The notes under the pieces were generated by a model. The model had not been told where the DNA came from. It made no database searches and was given only the letters and a program-made list of their open reading frames with translations. A program made the position numbers and the translations under genes. Shown one piece after another: positions 36,042 through 44,920 of a stretch of DNA of 64,000 nucleotides (the stretch's first letter is position 1; every line of letters starts with the position of its first letter). Source of the DNA: Acidobacteriota bacterium (GTDB taxonomy: Bacteria > Acidobacteriota > Blastocatellia > RBC074); the NCBI GenBank assembly GCA_037439425.1, contig JBBIWA010000022.1, forward strand, positions 1 to 64,000, in the 5' to 3' direction.

Positions 36042-37436
36042 TTACCGTGCAGTAGCACGCAGGATCGGATCATCAATCGAACGCTGCCACGCGGTCAAGC
36101 GTTCCTGAAGCTGATCGCGAATTTGTTGATACCCGGCCTGGCGATAGAGATTGCGCGTCTCGCCAGGGTCCTTTTCCAGATCGTAAAGCTCATCCAGAAA
36201 ATTGCTGAAGTAATGCCGCACCAACTTCCATTTGCTGGTGCGAATCATCCGCAGGTGCCTGAAGCCATCGTTGTGCACATCGTATTGCCCGAAGATCGCG
36301 TCGCGCCACGCGATCTTTTGCCCGCGCAGCAAAGGCGAGAAATCTAGACCCTGGTGCCTGACGCGAGCAGGCACAGGCGTGCCAAGCATCCCTAAAACCA
36401 AAGCGAACATGTCAATGTTGGAGACTGGCTCTGTGATTTCACTGCCAGGCTTTGCGACCCCAGGCCAGCGGATGATCAACGGCACGCGAATGGATTCCTC
36501 AAACATATTCGGACGCTGCGGCCCTCTGATGCCGCCTGCGACCCACCAGGCATTGCCTTTGGTGTGTAAGCCGTGGTGACCAATCATATAGCCGTGATCG
36601 CTGGTGAAAAGCACGATGGTCTTGCGCGCCAGATTCAGCTCATCGAGCCTGCTGAGCAGGCGGCCCAGATTGCGATCAACCGCGTGAATGGCCGCGTAAT
36701 ATTCGCGCGTCCACTGTTTCACCTGAGCGACGTCCAACCCTGGAGCTTGAGGCACAGTTGGGTCGAGGTCCGCAAAAGGCGCAGTGTCTTCAGCAGGCAT
36801 CGGGCCATAGGGCAGGTGCGGCTCGCGGAAATGCACAAGCAAAGCGAAGGGGCGCGCCCGGTTGTTTTCCACGAACCGAATGGCTTCATCTGTGATCAGG
36901 TCAGAAGCCGGACCTTTGAGTTTCGTCTCTTTGCCGTTTACTTCCAGCGTCGGATCCATCGGCTCGAAGCTGCCGCGCAAAGAACCGAAGAAGTGATGAA
37001 AGCCGTGCCGCGTGGGATGAAACTGCGGCTTGCTTCCCAGGTGCCACTTCCCGATCAGCGCTGTGATGTAGCCGTGCCGCTGCAAAACTTCCGGCCACGT
37101 GGTCTGCTGCGGTGGTAACCCTACTCCAGCCTCTGCTTCACTCGGCGCGATGTAATCGGTAATTCCCACCTGCGTGCCGTAAAGGCCGGTGAGGAAAGAT
37201 GCGCGACTAGGCGAACAGACTGGCGTGGCGACGAAGGCGTTGATGAAGCGCGCTCCTTCGCGGGCCAGCCGATCCATATTCGGCGTGCGCGCTTCGCGGT
37301 TGCCGTAAGCGCCAACCGACCAGTGCGCCTGATCGTCAGTGACGATTGAGATGAGATTATATCGTTCTGGCTGCGCAGCTTCGGAGAGCAAGATGAGAGC
37401 CAGAACTATCGCGATCACTATCAATAGCTTCTGCAT
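36042..37436 (-). CDS. Sulfatase (formylglycine-dependent arylsulfatase family), secreted
   Basis: CSPSR formylglycine motif ([14 protein letters not shown]) and a signal peptide. Confidence 0.85.
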
Positions 37437-37459
37437 GCTTTTTGCTACTGGCACCCCTC

Positions 37460-38245
37460 TCACTTTTTGACCCGGTCGAAGAACTCTCGCTGCAGCTCCA
37501 ACGTCCTGGTATCGGCTTTAATGGCGCGCAAGGCTCTAGCCAGAGATTCAATCCGGTGCTCAGTGAGGACTTGACCCAGCTCGCGCGTAGCTTTGGCCCC
37601 TTCGCCAGCATAATGATTCGGGAAGCTGGCATACCACCAGATAGCAGTGTAGAGCTCAGGCAGAGCGAGCCGCTTCTGATTTTCTCCTGACTCCTGAGTC
37701 GCGCGATCCATCTGGACCAGGTCTGGACGCAGATAGAGCAGTGTCGAGGTCTCTCGCTCCCCAGCGTGCATATCGCCAGCAGGGTCCGATTTGCGCAGCG
37801 CCGTGATCTGTTCATTCAAAGCCGCGTCCGGCGCGGGCTCGAAGAGATAGACGACATAGTCGCGGCGGCGCTCGAGCTGCGATTGCATGAAGAAGCGCAG
37901 CAGGTTCGGGTTGCCACCGTGCCCGTTGATGATCAGAATTCTTTTGAAGCCGTTGCGCGCGATCTCCTCACAGGTGGCATCCAGCAGCTCCCACACCAGG
38001 CGCGAGGGCAAAGCAAAAGTGCCAGGTTGATGTTTGGCTTCTTAGATCTGACCGTAGAAGTAATCCGGGAAGACCACAGCATACTCTTTCTTGGTCGCGC
38101 GCGCCGCCCATTCGCGCAGGTGAATCAGGTCTGAGCCGATGGGCGCATGCGGGCCGTGCTTTTCCAGAATGCCGATGGGAAGAATACAAGTGTAATTGGA
38201 TCTCTCCAGCGCTGTAGGCCAATCGCTGGCTTTGACATCCTCCCC
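37460..38245 (-). pseudogene. Creatininase-family amidohydrolase, disrupted by an in-frame TAA (plus 38034-38036) with its 5' end abutting the IS605 right end
   Basis: A single frame reads ..ILPIGILEKHGPHAPIGSDL..YGQI*EAKHQPGTFALPS..ILIINGHGGN..GERETS. No start codon is found upstream of the ASDWPTALE region before the TnpB stop. Confidence 0.55.
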
Positions 38246-38248
38246 GGC

Positions 38249-39499
38249 CTAAAGGCCGGAGATTCCTACTGCACTGCAGGCGTGGCACCGAGCCCTGCCT
38301 GAGTCGCTTCGGTGGGTTCCTGCTGCTGGCGGCGTTATGCCGCTCACTTCACAGGCGCAACGGGCGTGCCCCGCCCTGAGAATGTTGATCGCGCCAACCA
38401 GATCGGCGTTGGCCTCAAACCCGCACTCGACACATTGGAACTGCGCTTGCGACGGGCGGTTGTCCGCTGAGACATGGCAGCAAGCTGGACAGGTGCGGCT
38501 CGTGTTCTGCGGCGGCACAGCAATCAGCCAGCCGCCCTTCCATGCCAGCTTGTATTCCAGTTGGCGGCGGAACTCGAACCAGCCTTGATCAAGGATGGAT
38601 TTGTTCAGGCCGGACTTGGCCCGAACGTTTCTGCCCGGCTCGACCAAGGTGCCCGCCGCTGACTGGGACATGTTGCGCACCTGCAAGTCCTCGATACACA
38701 CCATCGCGTGGTTTTGGCTGATCGTGGTCGTGGCTTTGTGCAGGAAGTCGCGGCGGGCGTTGCCGATGCGGGCGTGGATGCGCTGAACGCGGGCTTTGGC
38801 TTTCCTCCAGTTGTTGCTGAACTTCACCTTGCGGCCCATGGCCTGCTGCGCTTTACGCAAAGCAGTTTGATGCCGCCTGAAGCTGTTGATCGGCTCGATT
38901 ACTGTGCCGTCCGAGAGCGTGGCGAACCGCGCCACCCCCATGTCGATGCCGATTGCGCCGCCGTTGGGAATCGGCTGTTCGACCTCGCGTTCGGTCTGGA
39001 TCGATATGTACCACTTGCCACAGGACTGGCTCACGGTGACGTTCTTCACCGCGCCTAGCACCGCCCGGCTGTTGCGGTAACGCATCCAGCCGAGCTTAGG
39101 CAGGAAGAGGCGGCTGTTGTGCTGCTCCAGCTTGATCTGCTTCGGGTCGGGGTAGCGGAAGCTGTCGTGCCGCCCCTTCTTCTTGAAGCGCGGAAAGCCT
39201 GCCCGCTTGGCAAAGAAGTTGGCATAAGCCCTCTCCAAATCCTTGAGCGCCTGCTGCAACGGATGCACAGGCGCATCGGCCAGCCATGCCGTGTCCGGGC
39301 TGTTGCGCCACTCGGTGAGCAGCTGGCACAAGTCGGCATAGCCAAGCTTCTTCTCGCCCTTCTCGTGGCGTTCTTTTTGCAACGCCAGCGCCCGGTTGAA
39401 CACGAACCGGCACGAGCCAGCAAAGCGGCGCATCTGGTGCTCCTGCTGGCCGTTGGGCCGAAGCTCGAATTTGAAGGCTTGGAGCCGTTGCATGTCCAT
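38249..39499 (-). CDS. tnpB: TnpB (IS605 OrfB family RNA-guided endonuclease), apparently intact
   Basis: Start MDMQRLQAFKFELRP, RuvC-I IGIDMGV, RuvC-II CIEDLQV, zinc finger CPACCH..CVECGF, RuvC-III NADLVGAINI. Confidence 0.8.
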   Translation of the reverse strand: MDMQRLQAFKFELRPNGQQEHQMRRFAGSCRFVFNRALALQKERHEKGEKKLGYADLCQLLTEWRNSPDTAWLADAPVHPLQQALKDLERAYANFFAKRAGFPRFKKKGRHDSFRYPDPKQIKLEQHNSRLFLPKLGWMRYRNSRAVLGAVKNVTVSQSCGKWYISIQTEREVEQPIPNGGAIGIDMGVARFATLSDGTVIEPINSFRRHQTALRKAQQAMGRKVKFSNNWRKAKARVQRIHARIGNARRDFLHKATTTISQNHAMVCIEDLQVRNMSQSAAGTLVEPGRNVRAKSGLNKSILDQGWFEFRRQLEYKLAWKGGWLIAVPPQNTSRTCPACCHVSADNRPSQAQFQCVECGFEANADLVGAINILRAGHARCACEVSGITPPAAGTHRSDSGRARCHACSAVGISGL

Positions 39500-39514
39500 A
39501 GGATAGTTTGGGCT

Positions 39515-39930
39515 ATGAGCGAAGACAACGATATCCGATATGGACGGCACTGCGTTTTCAAGATGCACGTCCATTGGGTCTTTGTGACGAAATACCGCCG
39601 CAGGGTGTTCGACGGCGACGCTATCAACCGGCTGCGCACGATGAGCGCCCAAGGCCTGCGCCAACTTCGAAGCGCAACTGATCGAGATGGATGGCGAGGA
39701 CGATCATGTGCATTTGCTGGTCGAATATCCGCCGAAGGTGGCTGTCTCCAACCTGGTGAACAGCCTCAAGGGCGTGTCCAGCCGTCTGCTGCGCAAGGAG
39801 CGGGTCCGACATCTTGAAGCGCTACTGGAAGGGTGTGCTGTGGTCGCCGCCCTACTTCGCCTCATCCTGCGGCGGCGCTCCAATCTCCATCGTGCGCCAG
39901 TACATCGAACAGCAGCGGACGCCACACTGA
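39515..39930 (+). pseudogene. tnpA: IS200-type TnpA (Y1 transposase) with two +1 frameshifts (about 39665 and 39800)
   Basis: Frame 2: MSEDNDIRYGRHCVFKMHVHWVFVTKYRR. Frame 0: IEMDGEDDHVHLLVEYPPKVAVSNLVNSLKGVSSRLLRKE. Frame 1: ILKRYWKGVLWSPPYFASSCGGAPISIVRQYIEQQ. Confidence 0.75.
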
Positions 39931-40138
39931 AACCCAAGGACGCCTTCGCCGTCCGTGCTATCCTTCCCCGCCCTGAACGGCGAGGCTTGCCGCGCACCGG
40001 GTCAATTCATCCCACCGGGATGGCAATTCCTGCGCTGCCACACTACTCGTAAGCAACAGTAAAGTCATTAGCAGTTTCATCTCGGCACTCCTTTTGAAGA
40101 ATGGGATCACCAGTTGGGCTCCTCACCATTTTGTCAAA

Positions 40139-41305
40139 TCAGTCTGGCAATGGAGGTAAGCTCTCCCTCACCGGGTGCGTCAGGTAATAGGCGATGATCA
40201 GTGAAGCGACCTCGCTGTAATTTTCTACTCCCGATCTGACGCGATTGGCTTTGAGGTAATTATCATTCATCCGATGAGTAAAGCGTTGCAGTAGCCCGCG
40301 ATAGCGCTGCCAGAAGTGGGCGCGCGCCTGCAAATCCGCGCGCGGCCCTGCCCCAAGCGCGCCCACTATCTCCCGGTAGCGCTCGGGCGCAGCAGTGGAA
40401 AGTGCCAGCACCACACTCAAGGCTTCGAGATAGCCCGAGTAACGAACATAGGGATGGGCGGAATTGATGCAGACGAGAAAAGCAATAAAACTCGCTTCAT
40501 CTTCGCGTGCAAAGCCACGCTGGTGCGCCATCTCGTGGGCGATTGAGAACGGCAGACTGCAATCAGGCTGCTCAGCGTTAAAGTTCGGCTCGCCGGTAAA
40601 AGGCGAATAGATGCCCGTGATCCCGAGCCAGCTCATGGCGCGCGAGAAATAGGCTGGCTTGGGCGGGCTGAATCCACTAACACTAAAGCTGCTCAGCAGC
40701 GCTTCCTGTTGATATGCCGCCTCAATCACCTGATAAAGCTGTGGCCGGCTCATAGGTAGATAGCTCTGCTCCACCCAATCTTGATTGGCGCTCGCTGCTC
40801 GATAGTTGCGATTGATCCCGGCGATGATCGCGCGCCCGATCATTTCCAGCTCGCCGGCAGTCGCCTGGCGCAGCTGCAGCCCCAGCTTGGCAGCCAGCGG
40901 CGGGCGCTGATAATTCAAGCCCCAAAGGAGAAGGAAAAGCAGCGCTCCACCCCCGAAAAACCAGATCAGATTCAGAAGAGTCGAAAGCAGTAGCCTGACA
41001 AAGCCCGTGCGCCCCAGATACAGCTCCCGTATCTGCCAGATGGCCACTCCGGGCAGCCCCAGCAGCAGAAGTATCACTCCCACCTCAAACAATGAGAAGG
41101 TGAAATACCCGCTGATCAATGCCAACCCGCGGCCGATATAAGGGAAGAGGCCACGGCTGTAGTATCGCTCGATGAGGTCCGGATAGAAGGTAGCTAGCCG
41201 CTGCAACCCAAGCGCCAGCAGCAGCAAGCCAGGCGCAACTATCCAGCGCGCTTTGCGCCAGCCTCTGGCCATTTGCCTGCGCTCCCCCTTTCGCCTGGTT
41301 TCCAC
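40139..41305 (-). CDS. DUF3810-like membrane protein with HExxH zinc-peptidase motif
   Basis: N-terminal TM segments and IAHEMAHQRGF. Confidence 0.6.
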   Translation of the reverse strand: METRRKGERRQMARGWRKARWIVAPGLLLLALGLQRLATFYPDLIERYYSRGLFPYIGRGLALISGYFTFSLFEVGVILLLLGLPGVAIWQIRELYLGRTGFVRLLLSTLLNLIWFFGGGALLFLLLWGLNYQRPPLAAKLGLQLRQATAGELEMIGRAIIAGINRNYRAASANQDWVEQSYLPMSRPQLYQVIEAAYQQEALLSSFSVSGFSPPKPAYFSRAMSWLGITGIYSPFTGEPNFNAEQPDCSLPFSIAHEMAHQRGFAREDEASFIAFLVCINSAHPYVRYSGYLEALSVVLALSTAAPERYREIVGALGAGPRADLQARAHFWQRYRGLLQRFTHRMNDNYLKANRVRSGVENYSEVASLIIAYYLTHPVRESLPPLPD

Positions 41306-43802: not shown

Positions 43803-44693
43803 TTACTTCCCCTGTGAGGCCGTCATCGAGCTAGAGAGGAATTTAAGCAGGGCTGCATTGAAGGCTGGAGCGCATTCGAGTTGAGGCACGTGGCCACACC
43901 GATCAATGATGAACAGTTCCGAGCCAGCGATCTCTTTTTTGAAGCGCTCGCCCAGCTCCAGCGGCGTCAGTGCATCCTCACGCCCCCAGATGATCAGGGT
44001 CGGCGCTTTGATGGCTGACAGCTTGTGGTCAAGCACATCCTCACCATGAACGATGGAATCGATGAATCGCTGAATAGTGTAGCCATCACCAGCCGCCATC
44101 CGGCGCGTGAACATCATCTCGATTGCTGCCTCGCTGGTGTAAAGTTGCTTGTTGTAAAAGATGAGCTCGGCAATCTGCTTCGCATCCGCACGCGTCGAGA
44201 CGTTGAGCGCGTTGAGTAAGCGAGGATTGGCATTTGAGGGAAGCGAGAATCCAGCCGCATCCACCAGCACCAGGCGCTCGACCTTGTCCGGATGTGCCAG
44301 CGTAAAAGCCGCTGCCGTCCAGCCGCCGAGCGAATTGCCGACCAATGAGGCCTTGGTAATCCCCAGCTTCTTGTAGAAGCCGTCGAGAAAATCTACCAGC
44401 GTGGCGACGCGGTAGTTGATCAAAGGCTTGTCCGATTGGCCGAAACCGATCTGATCGGGAACATAAACCTTGAAGCGCGCAGCCAGTGCGGGCACCGTCG
44501 CCGCCCAGTTGCTCTTGTCGCCACCAAGGCCATGCAGCAGGATCACCACCGGGCCGGAGCCTGCTTCCAGATAATGAATCTTCTGGCCATAAACTTCTAC
44601 TTGCCGCTGCGCGATTTCTTGCGCCCACGAATTCCCCGCCAGCAGCACCACCAAGAGCGCAGCCCATCCGAGCACGCGATAAATCCTGATCAT
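43803..44693 (-). CDS. Alpha/beta fold hydrolase, secreted
   Basis: Signal peptide, HGLGG oxyanion region, GNSLGG nucleophile elbow. Confidence 0.8.
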   Translation of the reverse strand: MIRIYRVLGWAALLVVLLAGNSWAQEIAQRQVEVYGQKIHYLEAGSGPVVILLHGLGGDKSNWAATVPALAARFKVYVPDQIGFGQSDKPLINYRVATLVDFLDGFYKKLGITKASLVGNSLGGWTAAAFTLAHPDKVERLVLVDAAGFSLPSNANPRLLNALNVSTRADAKQIAELIFYNKQLYTSEAAIEMMFTRRMAAGDGYTIQRFIDSIVHGEDVLDHKLSAIKAPTLIIWGREDALTPLELGERFKKEIAGSELFIIDRCGHVPQLECAPAFNAALLKFLSSSMTASQGK

Positions 44694-44920
44694 AACTTTT
44701 CCTCCTGATGAGATTAAGTACCGAGATGACCAAACTACACCAGCCCAATGTAGCACAGGCACGCACCAGATGATAGTCAGGAGACTTGGGGTTCGACAGA
44801 GAAAAGCCATTGCCATGTCACAAAGTCCGCACAGCTTGGACCCAAGATGGCGAAGCTGGCAAGCAGAATCGGTGTGACTTTAGACGACAGGCGCGCCATC
44901 AAGCATTGAAGGACGTCATA

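What the first reader, a model, noticed from the sequence alone, without database searches (positions are those of the whole stretch)
38240..40050. IS200/IS605 element with decayed tnpA but intact tnpB: candidate stand-alone RNA-guided TnpB with its omega-RNA at the right end
tnpA (plus strand 39515-39930) needs two +1 frameshifts to read through its HUH and Tyr motifs. It is therefore non-functional. The divergent tnpB (minus strand 39499-38249) retains all RuvC motifs and the zinc finger. Intact TnpB with dead TnpA is the configuration expected for a domesticated or guide-RNA-dependent nuclease. Its omega-RNA (reRNA) should be encoded on the minus strand over about 38420-38240. This includes the perfect palindrome CCGGCCTTTAGGCCGG at 38244-38259, which overlaps the tnpB stop. 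The guide portion would read into the disrupted creatininase gene.
Basis: partly seen in the sequence, partly recalled or inferred. Interest (0 to 1): 0.6.

Follow-up and report, generated by a model that had tools for sequence, protein, structure and literature searches.

The report
Crippled IS605 transposon with intact TnpB
This is an ordinary 1.77-kb IS200/IS605 jumping gene inserted into a creatininase-family gene of an acidobacterium; its transposase gene is broken, but its RNA-guided nuclease gene (tnpB) and guide-RNA scaffold are intact, which is a common and well-described state for this transposon family.

Summary
The element spans window 38232-40000 (1769 bp; its top strand is the window's minus strand). 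It inserted without target duplication directly 3' of 5'-TTGAC-3', inside codon 27 of a 283-aa creatininase-family gene. Joining the flanks restores a sequence that aligns without gaps to uninterrupted Blastocatellia orthologs.

- **tnpA (39515-39930, +):** it carries two 1-nt insertions (CCC at 39648-50, GGG at 39802-4), plus non-conservative changes at conserved residues. It is a pseudogene.
- **tnpB (39499-38249, -):** it is full length. It has the RuvC D-E-D residues and the CxxC..CxxC zinc finger, and no excess of unusual substitutions.
- **omega-RNA scaffold (38394-38232, -):** this 163 nt stretch matches a covariance model built only from 53 relatives (167 bits, E about 1e-49). The family structure shows strong covariation. 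The guide would be 38231-38216, reading into the creatininase gene.

There is no evidence of domestication. Both transposon ends are intact, the guide is simply the insertion-site flank, and many relatives in other phyla carry an intact tnpA, a decayed one, or none. This is a standard non-autonomous IS605 copy of the kind already described for TnpB. Interest is low.

The parts
38232..40000 (-). Complete IS200/IS605 (IS605-type) element, 1769 bp. Its top strand is the window's minus strand.
   Evidence: The right-end boundary comes from 73 relatives. The left-end boundary comes from 30 relatives. The joined flanks give a 283-aa creatininase that aligns without gaps to intact orthologs at protein level and DNA level.
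40001..40005 (-). Target / transposon-adjacent motif 5'-TTGAC-3', immediately 5' of the left end.
   Evidence: Every relative has (T/C/A)TGAC before the conserved left end. Placing the boundary after TTGAC is the only position that restores the creatininase reading frame.
39931..40000 (-). Left end (LE), 70 nt and non-coding. It includes the subterminal hairpin CCTCGCC-GTTCA-GGGCGGGG at 39966-39985.
   Evidence: The sequence is conserved across 30 relatives. The hairpin can be read directly from the sequence.
39515..39930 (+). tnpA pseudogene (Y1/HUH transposase). It has 1-nt insertions at 39648-39650 (CCC) and 39802-39804 (GGG).
   Evidence: Three-frame translation. Nucleotide alignment with six intact homologs. 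The frame-corrected protein hits Y1_Tnp at 5e-42 and NCBIfam transpos_IS200 at 2e-42. It has 5 changes at columns that are at least 95% conserved, against a family median of 1.
38249..39499 (-). tnpB, intact: 416 aa from ATG 39499. The homology-supported start is ATG 39493. The stop is TAG at 38251-38249.
   Evidence: Three Pfam domains. NCBIfam guided_TnpB scores 380 bits against a cutoff of 100. Full-length match to ISDra2 TnpB structures, with D/E/D and 2x CxxC present. Only 4 conservative deviations at conserved columns, against a family median of 3.
38232..38394 (-). Predicted omega-RNA (reRNA) scaffold, 163 nt. It overlaps the last 146 nt of the tnpB ORF (stop codon included) and the right end.
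   Evidence: A covariance model built from 53 relatives, excluding the window, hits here over its full length at 167.3 bits, E 9.6e-50. It is the only hit in 64 kb. In the family structure 96.6% of cells are paired and 17 pairs show compensatory change; slid-partner controls give 33-55% and 4-10.
38241..38262 (-). Right-end subterminal hairpin, which is also the last omega-RNA stem: UCUCCGGCC-UUUA-GGCCGGGGA. It is followed by the 9-nt tail GGAUGUCAA.
   Evidence: Seen directly in the sequence. It is helix 9 of the consensus structure, where 5 of 7 pairs change on both sides. It gives weak sub-threshold Rfam hits to HgcC and sot0042.
38216..38231 (-). Predicted guide, AGCCAGCGAUUGGCCU. The 16-nt length is taken by analogy with ISDra2; the true length is unknown.
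   Evidence: These are the first bases after the conserved right-end boundary. Together with TTGAC they reconstitute the empty-site (donor-joint) sequence. The window holds no other close match.
37460..38231 (-). 3' fragment of the interrupted creatininase-family gene, from the last base of codon 27 to the stop. It carries a secondary nonsense mutation (Tyr90 to TAA) at 38042-38044.
   Evidence: Pfam Creatininase at 1.1e-49. The alignment to 11 orthologs shows Y at the stop position.
40001..40080 (-). 5' fragment of the creatininase-family gene: ATG at 40080, 26 codons plus 2 nt, with a signal-peptide-like N-terminus.
   Evidence: Translation. The N-terminus MKLL...AQELPSRWDELT matches the orthologs.

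Best explanation
This is a non-autonomous copy of an IS605-type (IS200/IS605 family) insertion sequence.

**Shown here**
- The element inserted by the family's usual single-strand 'peel-and-paste' route, directly 3' of TTGAC and without target duplication. The insertion lies in codon 27 of a creatininase-family gene of a Blastocatellia-like acidobacterium.
- Its Y1 transposase gene has since been inactivated by two 1-nt insertions and has drifted at conserved residues. The interrupted host gene has also picked up a nonsense codon.
- The tnpB gene, the omega-RNA scaffold that overlaps its 3' end, and both transposon-end hairpins remain intact.

**Inferred from ISDra2 and Geobacillus TnpB work**
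- TnpB would bind the roughly 160-nt scaffold, with its 3' guide transcribed from the flanking creatininase sequence.
- The complex would cut any DNA that has TTGAC followed by that guide sequence. That sequence is the scarless donor joint produced if the element is excised, so cutting it would favour retention or re-copying of the element.
- With its own TnpA dead, the copy can move only if a related TnpA is supplied in trans. Without one, the nuclease has no target in this genome and is simply carried along.
For: - **Boundaries and target site.** Searches give sharp conservation breaks in 73 and 30 relatives. One search shows the junction RWDELT|ASDWP is invariant in 11 intact 283-aa orthologs. 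One search gives a gapless DNA alignment to empty ortholog sites.
- **tnpA decay.**
- **tnpB integrity.**
- **omega-RNA.** Searches show covariation and one search gives the covariance-model hit (167 bits, E about 1e-49). The terminal UUUA hairpin lies at -22..-19; ISDra2 has one at -20..-17 (PMC10097598).
- **Family context.** About 32 of 79 relatives have a full-length divergent tnpA, about 15 have a truncated or decayed one, and about 25 have none. In at least 13 of the tnpA-less relatives the same left end lies 90-160 nt upstream of tnpB. RefSeq plasmids carry end-to-end relatives annotated as TnpB plus IS200/IS605 transposase.
- **Mechanism and frequency of tnpA-less tnpB.** PMC10055086.
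Against: - There is no direct evidence that tnpB or the omega-RNA is expressed. The sigma-70 consensus scan found no promoter-like site in 38000-40300, though acidobacterial promoters may not fit that consensus.
- The activity, guide length and functional TAM are inferred, not measured.
- Only 64 kb of the host genome is visible, so it is unknown whether a trans-acting TnpA or sister copies exist.
- Both tnpA frameshifts are single-base insertions in 3-nt homopolymers, so assembly error cannot be strictly excluded.
- tnpB may be intact simply because the insertion is recent.
Confidence: 0.85

Rival explanations
1. The whole element is a dead relic. tnpB is no longer under any selection or expressed, and it is intact only because too little time has passed for a disabling mutation.
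For: No promoter-like site was found. Only one copy is present in the window. The exact protein is not on record elsewhere. Decay has clearly begun in the two neighbouring reading frames.

A crude Poisson estimate takes 3 disabling events in about 1.27 kb of tnpA plus creatininase. It gives P of about 0.05 for zero events in 1.25 kb of tnpB. That is low but not negligible.
Against: TnpB shows no excess of changes at conserved positions: 4 changes, all conservative, against a family median of 3. The frame-corrected TnpA shows 5 in a protein one third the size, several of them radical. The omega-RNA keeps every consensus helix.
Confidence: 0.3
2. TnpB has been domesticated. Under this reading the nuclease and its guide RNA now serve a host function such as gene regulation or defence, and tnpA loss reflects that transition.
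For: tnpB is intact beside a dead tnpA. tnpB is better preserved than its neighbours.
Against: - Both transposon ends and both hairpins are intact, and the element still sits inside the gene it disrupted.
- The guide is just the insertion-site flank, and it has no second target in the window.
- The RuvC residues are intact, unlike in known nuclease-dead domesticated TnpB derivatives.
- The same architecture occurs as ordinary multicopy IS elements with varied flanks in many phyla.
- Most tnpB genes lack tnpA anyway (PMC10055086).
Confidence: 0.04
3. tnpA is actually functional. Under this reading the two frameshifts are assembly or sequencing errors, or are bypassed by the ribosome, and the element is autonomous.
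For: Both lesions are single-base insertions in short homopolymers, CC to CCC and GG to GGG. Some sequencing platforms make this type of error.
Against: - The window contains many long uninterrupted ORFs of up to 992 aa, so indel errors are not pervasive.
- The frame-corrected TnpA carries radical substitutions at positions that are at least 95% conserved (L21W, F44S, P97S), and the region around the first indel is locally rewritten, IFAK to MSAK.
- The neighbouring creatininase carries an independent substitution-type nonsense codon.
Confidence: 0.07

Closest known systems
ISDra2 (Deinococcus radiodurans) TnpB-omega-RNA, IS200/IS605 family (PDB 8H1J, 8EXA; PMC8612924, PMC10097598)
   Same: - The protein aligns over its full length (E about 1e-53), with the same D-E-D RuvC residues and zinc finger.
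- The omega-RNA overlaps the tnpB 3' end and the right end.
- The terminal stem has a UUUA tetraloop about 20 nt from the guide junction.
- The 5-nt TAM differs by one base (TTGAC here, TTGAT in ISDra2).
- The C-terminal tail of the protein overlaps the RNA scaffold.
   Different: - tnpA is divergent from tnpB here, as in IS605 and IS606, rather than co-directional and overlapping, and it is a pseudogene.
- The scaffold is about 163 nt here and 116 nt in ISDra2.
- There is a 15-residue insertion between the RuvC E and the TNB domain.
- The pseudoknot has not been demonstrated here.
Non-autonomous tnpB-only IS elements (IS1341-type; Geobacillus ISGst2-5, PMC10055086)
   Same: TnpB and the omega-RNA are flanked by intact LE and RE, with no working transposase. 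The guide is the flank next to the RE. The predicted role is cleavage of the donor joint, with mobilisation in trans.
   Different: Here the tnpA remnant is still present as a full-length pseudogene, so this is an intermediate stage. In tnpA-less relatives the LE sits 90-160 nt from tnpB.
IS608/IS605 of Helicobacter pylori (the TnpA paradigm)
   Same: Both use a Y1 HUH transposase. Both have similar subterminal hairpins at the two ends. Both insert 3' of a short motif without duplication. Here the left cleavage motif is TTGAC and the right end finishes in ...GTCAA; IS608 uses TTAC and TCAA (from my own recollection of the IS608 literature, not checked here).
   Different: The end sequences and the target motif differ. 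The transposase here is inactive.
Archaeal sotRNAs and the HgcC RNA family (RF02656, RF00062; PMC4615843)
   Same: These RNAs overlap the 3' end of IS1341-type tnpB genes and have a right-end-like hairpin with a UUCA/UUUA tetraloop. The window gives weak hits to both families exactly at 38220-38347 on the minus strand.
   Different: The scores are far below the gathering thresholds (22.6 against 50 bits; 13.9-17.1 against 88 bits). These are archaeal families, so the window is not a member of either.
TldR, the nuclease-dead domesticated TnpB-like regulators
   Same: It is a TnpB homolog without a working partner transposase.
   Different: TldRs have lost the RuvC catalytic residues and the transposon ends, and they carry conserved guides against host promoters. 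None of this applies here.

Membership tests
IS200/IS605 insertion sequence (IS605 type) | Encodes a Y1 (HUH) TnpA transposase | tested here: met
   The frame-corrected product hits Pfam Y1_Tnp at 5e-42 and NCBIfam transpos_IS200 at 2e-42. The gene is present only as a pseudogene with two frameshifts.
IS200/IS605 insertion sequence (IS605 type) | Inserts 3' of a short specific motif with no target-site duplication and no terminal inverted repeats | tested here: met
   TTGAC lies immediately 5' of the LE in the window, and TGAC does in the relatives. The joined flanks align without gaps to intact orthologs at protein and DNA level. The ends, CCGGTGCG... and ...GATGTCAA, are not inverted repeats of each other.
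IS200/IS605 insertion sequence (IS605 type) | Similar subterminal hairpins at LE and RE | tested here: met
   LE: CCTCGCC-GTTCA-GGGCGGGG at 39966-39985. RE: UCUCCGGCC-UUUA-GGCCGGGGA at 38241-38262. Both are conserved in the relatives, and the RE stem covaries.
RNA-guided endonuclease TnpB (NCBIfam NF040570 guided_TnpB) | Whole-protein score above the curated cutoff | tested here: met
   380 bits against a cutoff of 100. The narrower 'exception' model IS200_TnpB scores 292, below its cutoff of 425.
RNA-guided endonuclease TnpB (NCBIfam NF040570 guided_TnpB) | RuvC catalytic D-E-D triad and CxxC...CxxC zinc finger | tested here: met
   In the alignment to ISDra2 TnpB, GIDMG, CIEDL, NADLV, CPAC and CVEC are all aligned to the corresponding motifs.
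RNA-guided endonuclease TnpB (NCBIfam NF040570 guided_TnpB) | RNA-guided, TAM-dependent dsDNA cleavage | not testable with these tools
   This needs a biochemical or plasmid-interference assay.
TnpB omega-RNA (reRNA) | Encoded on the tnpB strand, overlaps the tnpB 3' end, and ends exactly at the RE boundary with the guide in the flank | tested here: met
   The covariance-model hit covers 38394-38232 on the minus strand. The RE boundary is defined by 73 relatives.
TnpB omega-RNA (reRNA) | Conserved secondary structure supported by covariation | tested here: met
   96.6% of cells are paired and 17 of 39 pairs change on both sides. None of 500 shuffles reaches the observed values, and slid-partner controls give 33-55% paired.
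TnpB omega-RNA (reRNA) | Pseudoknot between the nucleotides just 5' of the guide and an upstream segment | tested here: inconclusive
   RNAalifold pairs -3..-8 with a segment about 160 nt upstream (helix 1, 97% paired). No pair in that helix changes on both sides, so it is unproven.
TnpB omega-RNA (reRNA) | Transcribed and processed into a stable RNA | not testable with these tools
   No transcriptome data are available. No sigma-70-like promoter was found.
Rfam HgcC (RF00062) / sot0042 (RF02656) | Score at or above the family gathering threshold | tested here: not met
   HgcC scores 22.6 bits against 50. sot0042 scores 13.9-17.1 bits against 88. This is a resemblance only.
Domesticated TnpB derivatives (e.g. 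TldR) | Loss of nuclease residues and of transposon ends, with a guide fixed on a host target | tested here: not met
   The catalytic residues are intact. LE and RE are intact. The guide equals the insertion flank and has no other match in the window.

The most novel reading that the evidence does not exclude
After tnpA died, tnpB and its omega-RNA have been kept by selection in this acidobacterial lineage. That would make this locus a snapshot of the step at which an RNA-guided nuclease outlives its transposase. Two routes are possible: the nuclease persists through its own selfish homing activity using a TnpA supplied in trans, or this is the first stage of host co-option. The element appears to have arrived by cross-phylum transfer: its closest TnpB relatives (84% identity) are in Proteobacteria, and its GC content is 61.6% against 56.9% for the window.
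Probability: 0.1. Interest if true: 0.35.

Novelty: already known. Interest (0 to 1): 0.12.

Why it matters
It matters little beyond correct annotation. The locus should be labelled as three things:
- an IS200/IS605 element at 38232-40000 with a tnpA pseudogene;
- an intact RNA-guided TnpB with an omega-RNA;
- a creatininase-family pseudogene split by the insertion.

It is a clean worked example in which the TAM (TTGAC), the right-end boundary and the guide can be read to the base from comparative data. This TnpB/omega-RNA family is spread across several phyla, so it could be tried as a compact genome editor. The 'intact TnpB, dead TnpA' configuration itself is the common state of tnpB genes and was already explained by published work.

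Tried and rejected
- **Exact-sequence look-ups of the TnpB protein.** Both possible starts were tried, to find the source genome or sister copies. Neither is on record.
- **Rfam scan of 37000-41000 at a permissive E-value.** It gave only sub-threshold hits. HgcC and sot0042 are informative as resemblances. The H19, HOXA11-AS and snoRNA hits are noise.
- **Second copy or second tnpA in the window.** blastn and tblastn found none. A weak tblastn hit at 44676-44750 lies in an alpha/beta-hydrolase gene and is spurious.
- **Promoter and terminator scan.** No promoter-like sites were found. The two terminator-like sites are no more than chance would give.
- **Single-sequence fold of the 220-nt 3' region.** It is not significantly more stable than shuffles (z = -1.1). 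The evidence for structure rests on covariation, not on folding energy.
- **Search for other targets of the 16-nt guide in the window.** It found only a 3-mismatch hit, at chance level.
- **Signal peptide plus IS-encoded start codon.** I considered that the ATG inside GGAGGATGTC at the RE might provide a new start for the downstream creatininase fragment. I rejected this because that ATG is out of frame with the creatininase, and the gene carries a nonsense codon anyway.
Full report
**What is in the sequence.** The minus strand of 38249-39499 is an uninterrupted 416-codon ORF.
- It carries the three Pfam domains of TnpB: HTH_OrfB_IS605, OrfB_IS605 and Cas12f1-like_TNB.
- It scores 380 bits against NCBIfam guided_TnpB, whose cutoff is 100.
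- It aligns end to end with the solved ISDra2 TnpB structures 8H1J, 8BF8 and 8EXA (E about 1e-53).
- In that alignment the three RuvC carboxylates (GIDMG, CIEDL, NADLV) and both CxxC pairs of the zinc finger are present.

On the plus strand, 15 bp from the tnpB start, tnpA (39515-39930) can only be read by changing frame twice. Alignment with six intact homologs shows exactly two single-base insertions, one in a CCC run at 39648-39650 and one in a GGG run at 39802-39804. With those two bases removed, the 137-aa product matches Y1_Tnp at 5e-42.

**Where the element begins and ends.** One scan of species-representative genomes returned 79 loci encoding TnpB proteins 73-84% identical to this one. 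They come from Beta- and Gammaproteobacteria, Verrucomicrobia, Chloroflexota, Nitrospira and other groups.
- *Right end.* In 73 of these loci the sequence downstream of tnpB is conserved up to ...GGAGGATGTCAA. Past that point it becomes unrelated from one locus to the next.
- *Left end.* In 30 loci with tnpA, conservation starts at CCGGTGCGCG(A/G)CAAGCC. It is always preceded by TGAC, which is TTGAC in the window. This places the left end at 40000, not 40050.
- *Check on both boundaries.* Joining the flanks (40080..40001 plus 38231..37460, minus strand) gives an 852-nt reading frame. Its 283-aa product is 86% identical over 100% of its length to 283-aa creatininase-family proteins labelled Blastocatellia. 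The junction RWDELT|ASDWP is invariant in 11 orthologs, with no gap. The DNA of two contigs that encode the closest ortholog (P0001) at an uninterrupted site aligns without gaps across the junction.

The element is therefore 1769 bp. It inserted 3' of TTGAC with no target duplication, which is the IS200/IS605 signature. The host gene has since acquired a TAA in place of an invariant Tyr codon, at 38042-38044.

**The omega-RNA.** The last 163 nt of the element, on the tnpB strand, are much more conserved at the nucleotide level than a disordered protein tail would require.
- RNAalifold on 69 sequences predicts nine helices.
- On that structure 96.6% of cells form standard pairs and 17 of 39 pairs change on both sides. 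When the partners are slid by 1-3 columns, the figures drop to 33-55% paired and 4-10 such pairs. None of 500 column shuffles reaches the observed values.
- A covariance model built from 53 relatives, without the window, finds a single hit in the 64-kb window. It covers 38394-38232 on the minus strand over the model's full length, at 167.3 bits and E about 1e-49.
- The window's copy keeps every helix. Its small indels (a 3-nt deletion in one loop and a 1-nt bulge) are tolerated by the model.

It is a stem-loop rather than a perfect palindrome, and it is followed by the 9-nt tail GGAUGUCAA. ISDra2 omega-RNA likewise ends in a stem with a UUUA tetraloop at -20..-17 (PMC10097598). The same hairpin explains the weak Rfam hits to the archaeal HgcC and sot0042 RNAs. 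These RNAs were described as transcripts overlapping the 3' ends of IS1341-type tnpB genes and sharing a right-end-like tetraloop (PMC4615843). The scores are far below the gathering thresholds, so this is a resemblance and not membership. A possible counterpart of the ISDra2 pseudoknot pairs -3..-8 with a segment about 160 nt upstream. It is predicted but has no compensatory support.

**Is tnpB really preserved while tnpA decays?**
- At alignment columns that are at least 95% conserved among 70 relatives, the window's TnpB core (373 aa) has 4 deviations, all conservative: D to E, V to I, L to I, S to G. The family median is 3.
- The frame-corrected TnpA (137 aa) has 5 deviations, including L21W, F44S and P97S. 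The family median is 1.
- The window contains many long intact ORFs, so pervasive indel error is unlikely.
- The frameshifts therefore look like real decay, although both lie in 3-nt homopolymers and only read-level data can settle the point.
- A crude Poisson argument takes three disabling events in about 1.27 kb of neighbouring coding sequence. It gives roughly a 5% chance that tnpB escaped by luck. This is suggestive but weak.

**How it most likely works.** These steps are inferred from published work, not shown here. In ISDra2, and in a family of Geobacillus elements, TnpB binds the omega-RNA and cuts DNA that carries the transposon-adjacent motif next to a guide match. That sequence is exactly the scarless donor joint left when TnpA excises the element, so the cut promotes retention or re-copying of the element (PMC8612924; PMC10055086). 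Here TTGAC plus the guide recreates the empty-site sequence, so the same logic applies. With tnpA dead, excision needs a TnpA supplied in trans. Both end hairpins that TnpA would recognise are intact.

**Why 'domesticated' is not supported.**
- The published survey found a tnpA near only about 25% of tnpB genes.
- Among this element's own relatives, about 32 loci have a full-length divergent tnpA, about 15 have a truncated or internally deleted one, and about 25 have none.
- In at least 13 of the tnpA-less loci the same left end sits 90-160 nt upstream of tnpB.
- One verrucomicrobial genome holds six tnpA-less copies with different flanks and one copy with tnpA.
- RefSeq plasmids carry end-to-end relatives that are already annotated as 'RNA-guided endonuclease TnpB family protein' plus 'IS200/IS605 family transposase'.
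- The window's copy still lies within its own ends, inside the gene it broke. Its guide is merely the insertion flank, and its nuclease site is intact.

All of this fits a selfish, non-autonomous IS on the usual path towards a tnpB-only element. None of it points to host co-option.

**Verdict.** This is a known kind of element in a common state, and interest is low.

Noticed in passing
window 38042-38044 (minus strand): The interrupted creatininase-family gene also carries a TAA stop where all 11 aligned orthologs have Tyr (GQIYEAK). It has therefore kept decaying after the insertion and is a pseudogene twice over.
   Followed up: yes
window 38232-40000 compared with the whole window: The flanking creatininase's best matches are Blastocatellia (Acidobacteriota). 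The element's closest TnpB relatives (84% identity) are in Beta- and Gammaproteobacteria. The element's GC content is 61.6% against 56.9% for the window. Together these suggest cross-phylum horizontal arrival.
   Followed up: partly
window 40030-40080 (minus strand): This creatininase-family protein and all its close orthologs start with a signal-peptide-like segment (MKLL..LLLT....AQ). That is unusual for the mostly cytoplasmic creatininase family. No signal-peptide predictor was run.
   Followed up: no
window 39493-39515: The divergent tnpA and tnpB start codons are only 15-21 bp apart. Each gene's promoter must therefore lie inside the other gene's coding sequence. No sigma-70-like promoter was detected.
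   Followed up: partly
window 38220-38347 (minus strand): The only RNA families in Rfam 15 that resemble this bacterial omega-RNA are two archaeal ones, HgcC (RF00062) and sot0042 (RF02656), both far below threshold. No model in the library reached threshold for this widespread right-end RNA.
   Followed up: partly
L039, L047, L051, L053, L056, L057 (Verrucomicrobia bacterium LP2A): One genome carries at least six tnpA-less copies of this element family, with different right-end flanks. A single copy with tnpA lies 3 kb from one of them (L047 5752-7255). This pattern fits mobilisation in trans.
   Followed up: partly
L025, L026, L037, L048, L072, and L058, L064, L066, L068, L075: In some relatives the terminal omega-RNA/RE hairpin is expanded by a 30-45-nt insertion that itself forms extra stems, while the flanking GGAAUC...GGAGGAUGUCAA frame is kept. 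This part of the scaffold is variable and tolerant of insertions.
   Followed up: no
L006 5130-7210: A second, unrelated IS605-type element lies next to the matched one. Its TnpB is 50% identical and its TnpA 56% identical. A third TnpB fragment is also present, so this may be a nest of IS605 elements.
   Followed up: no
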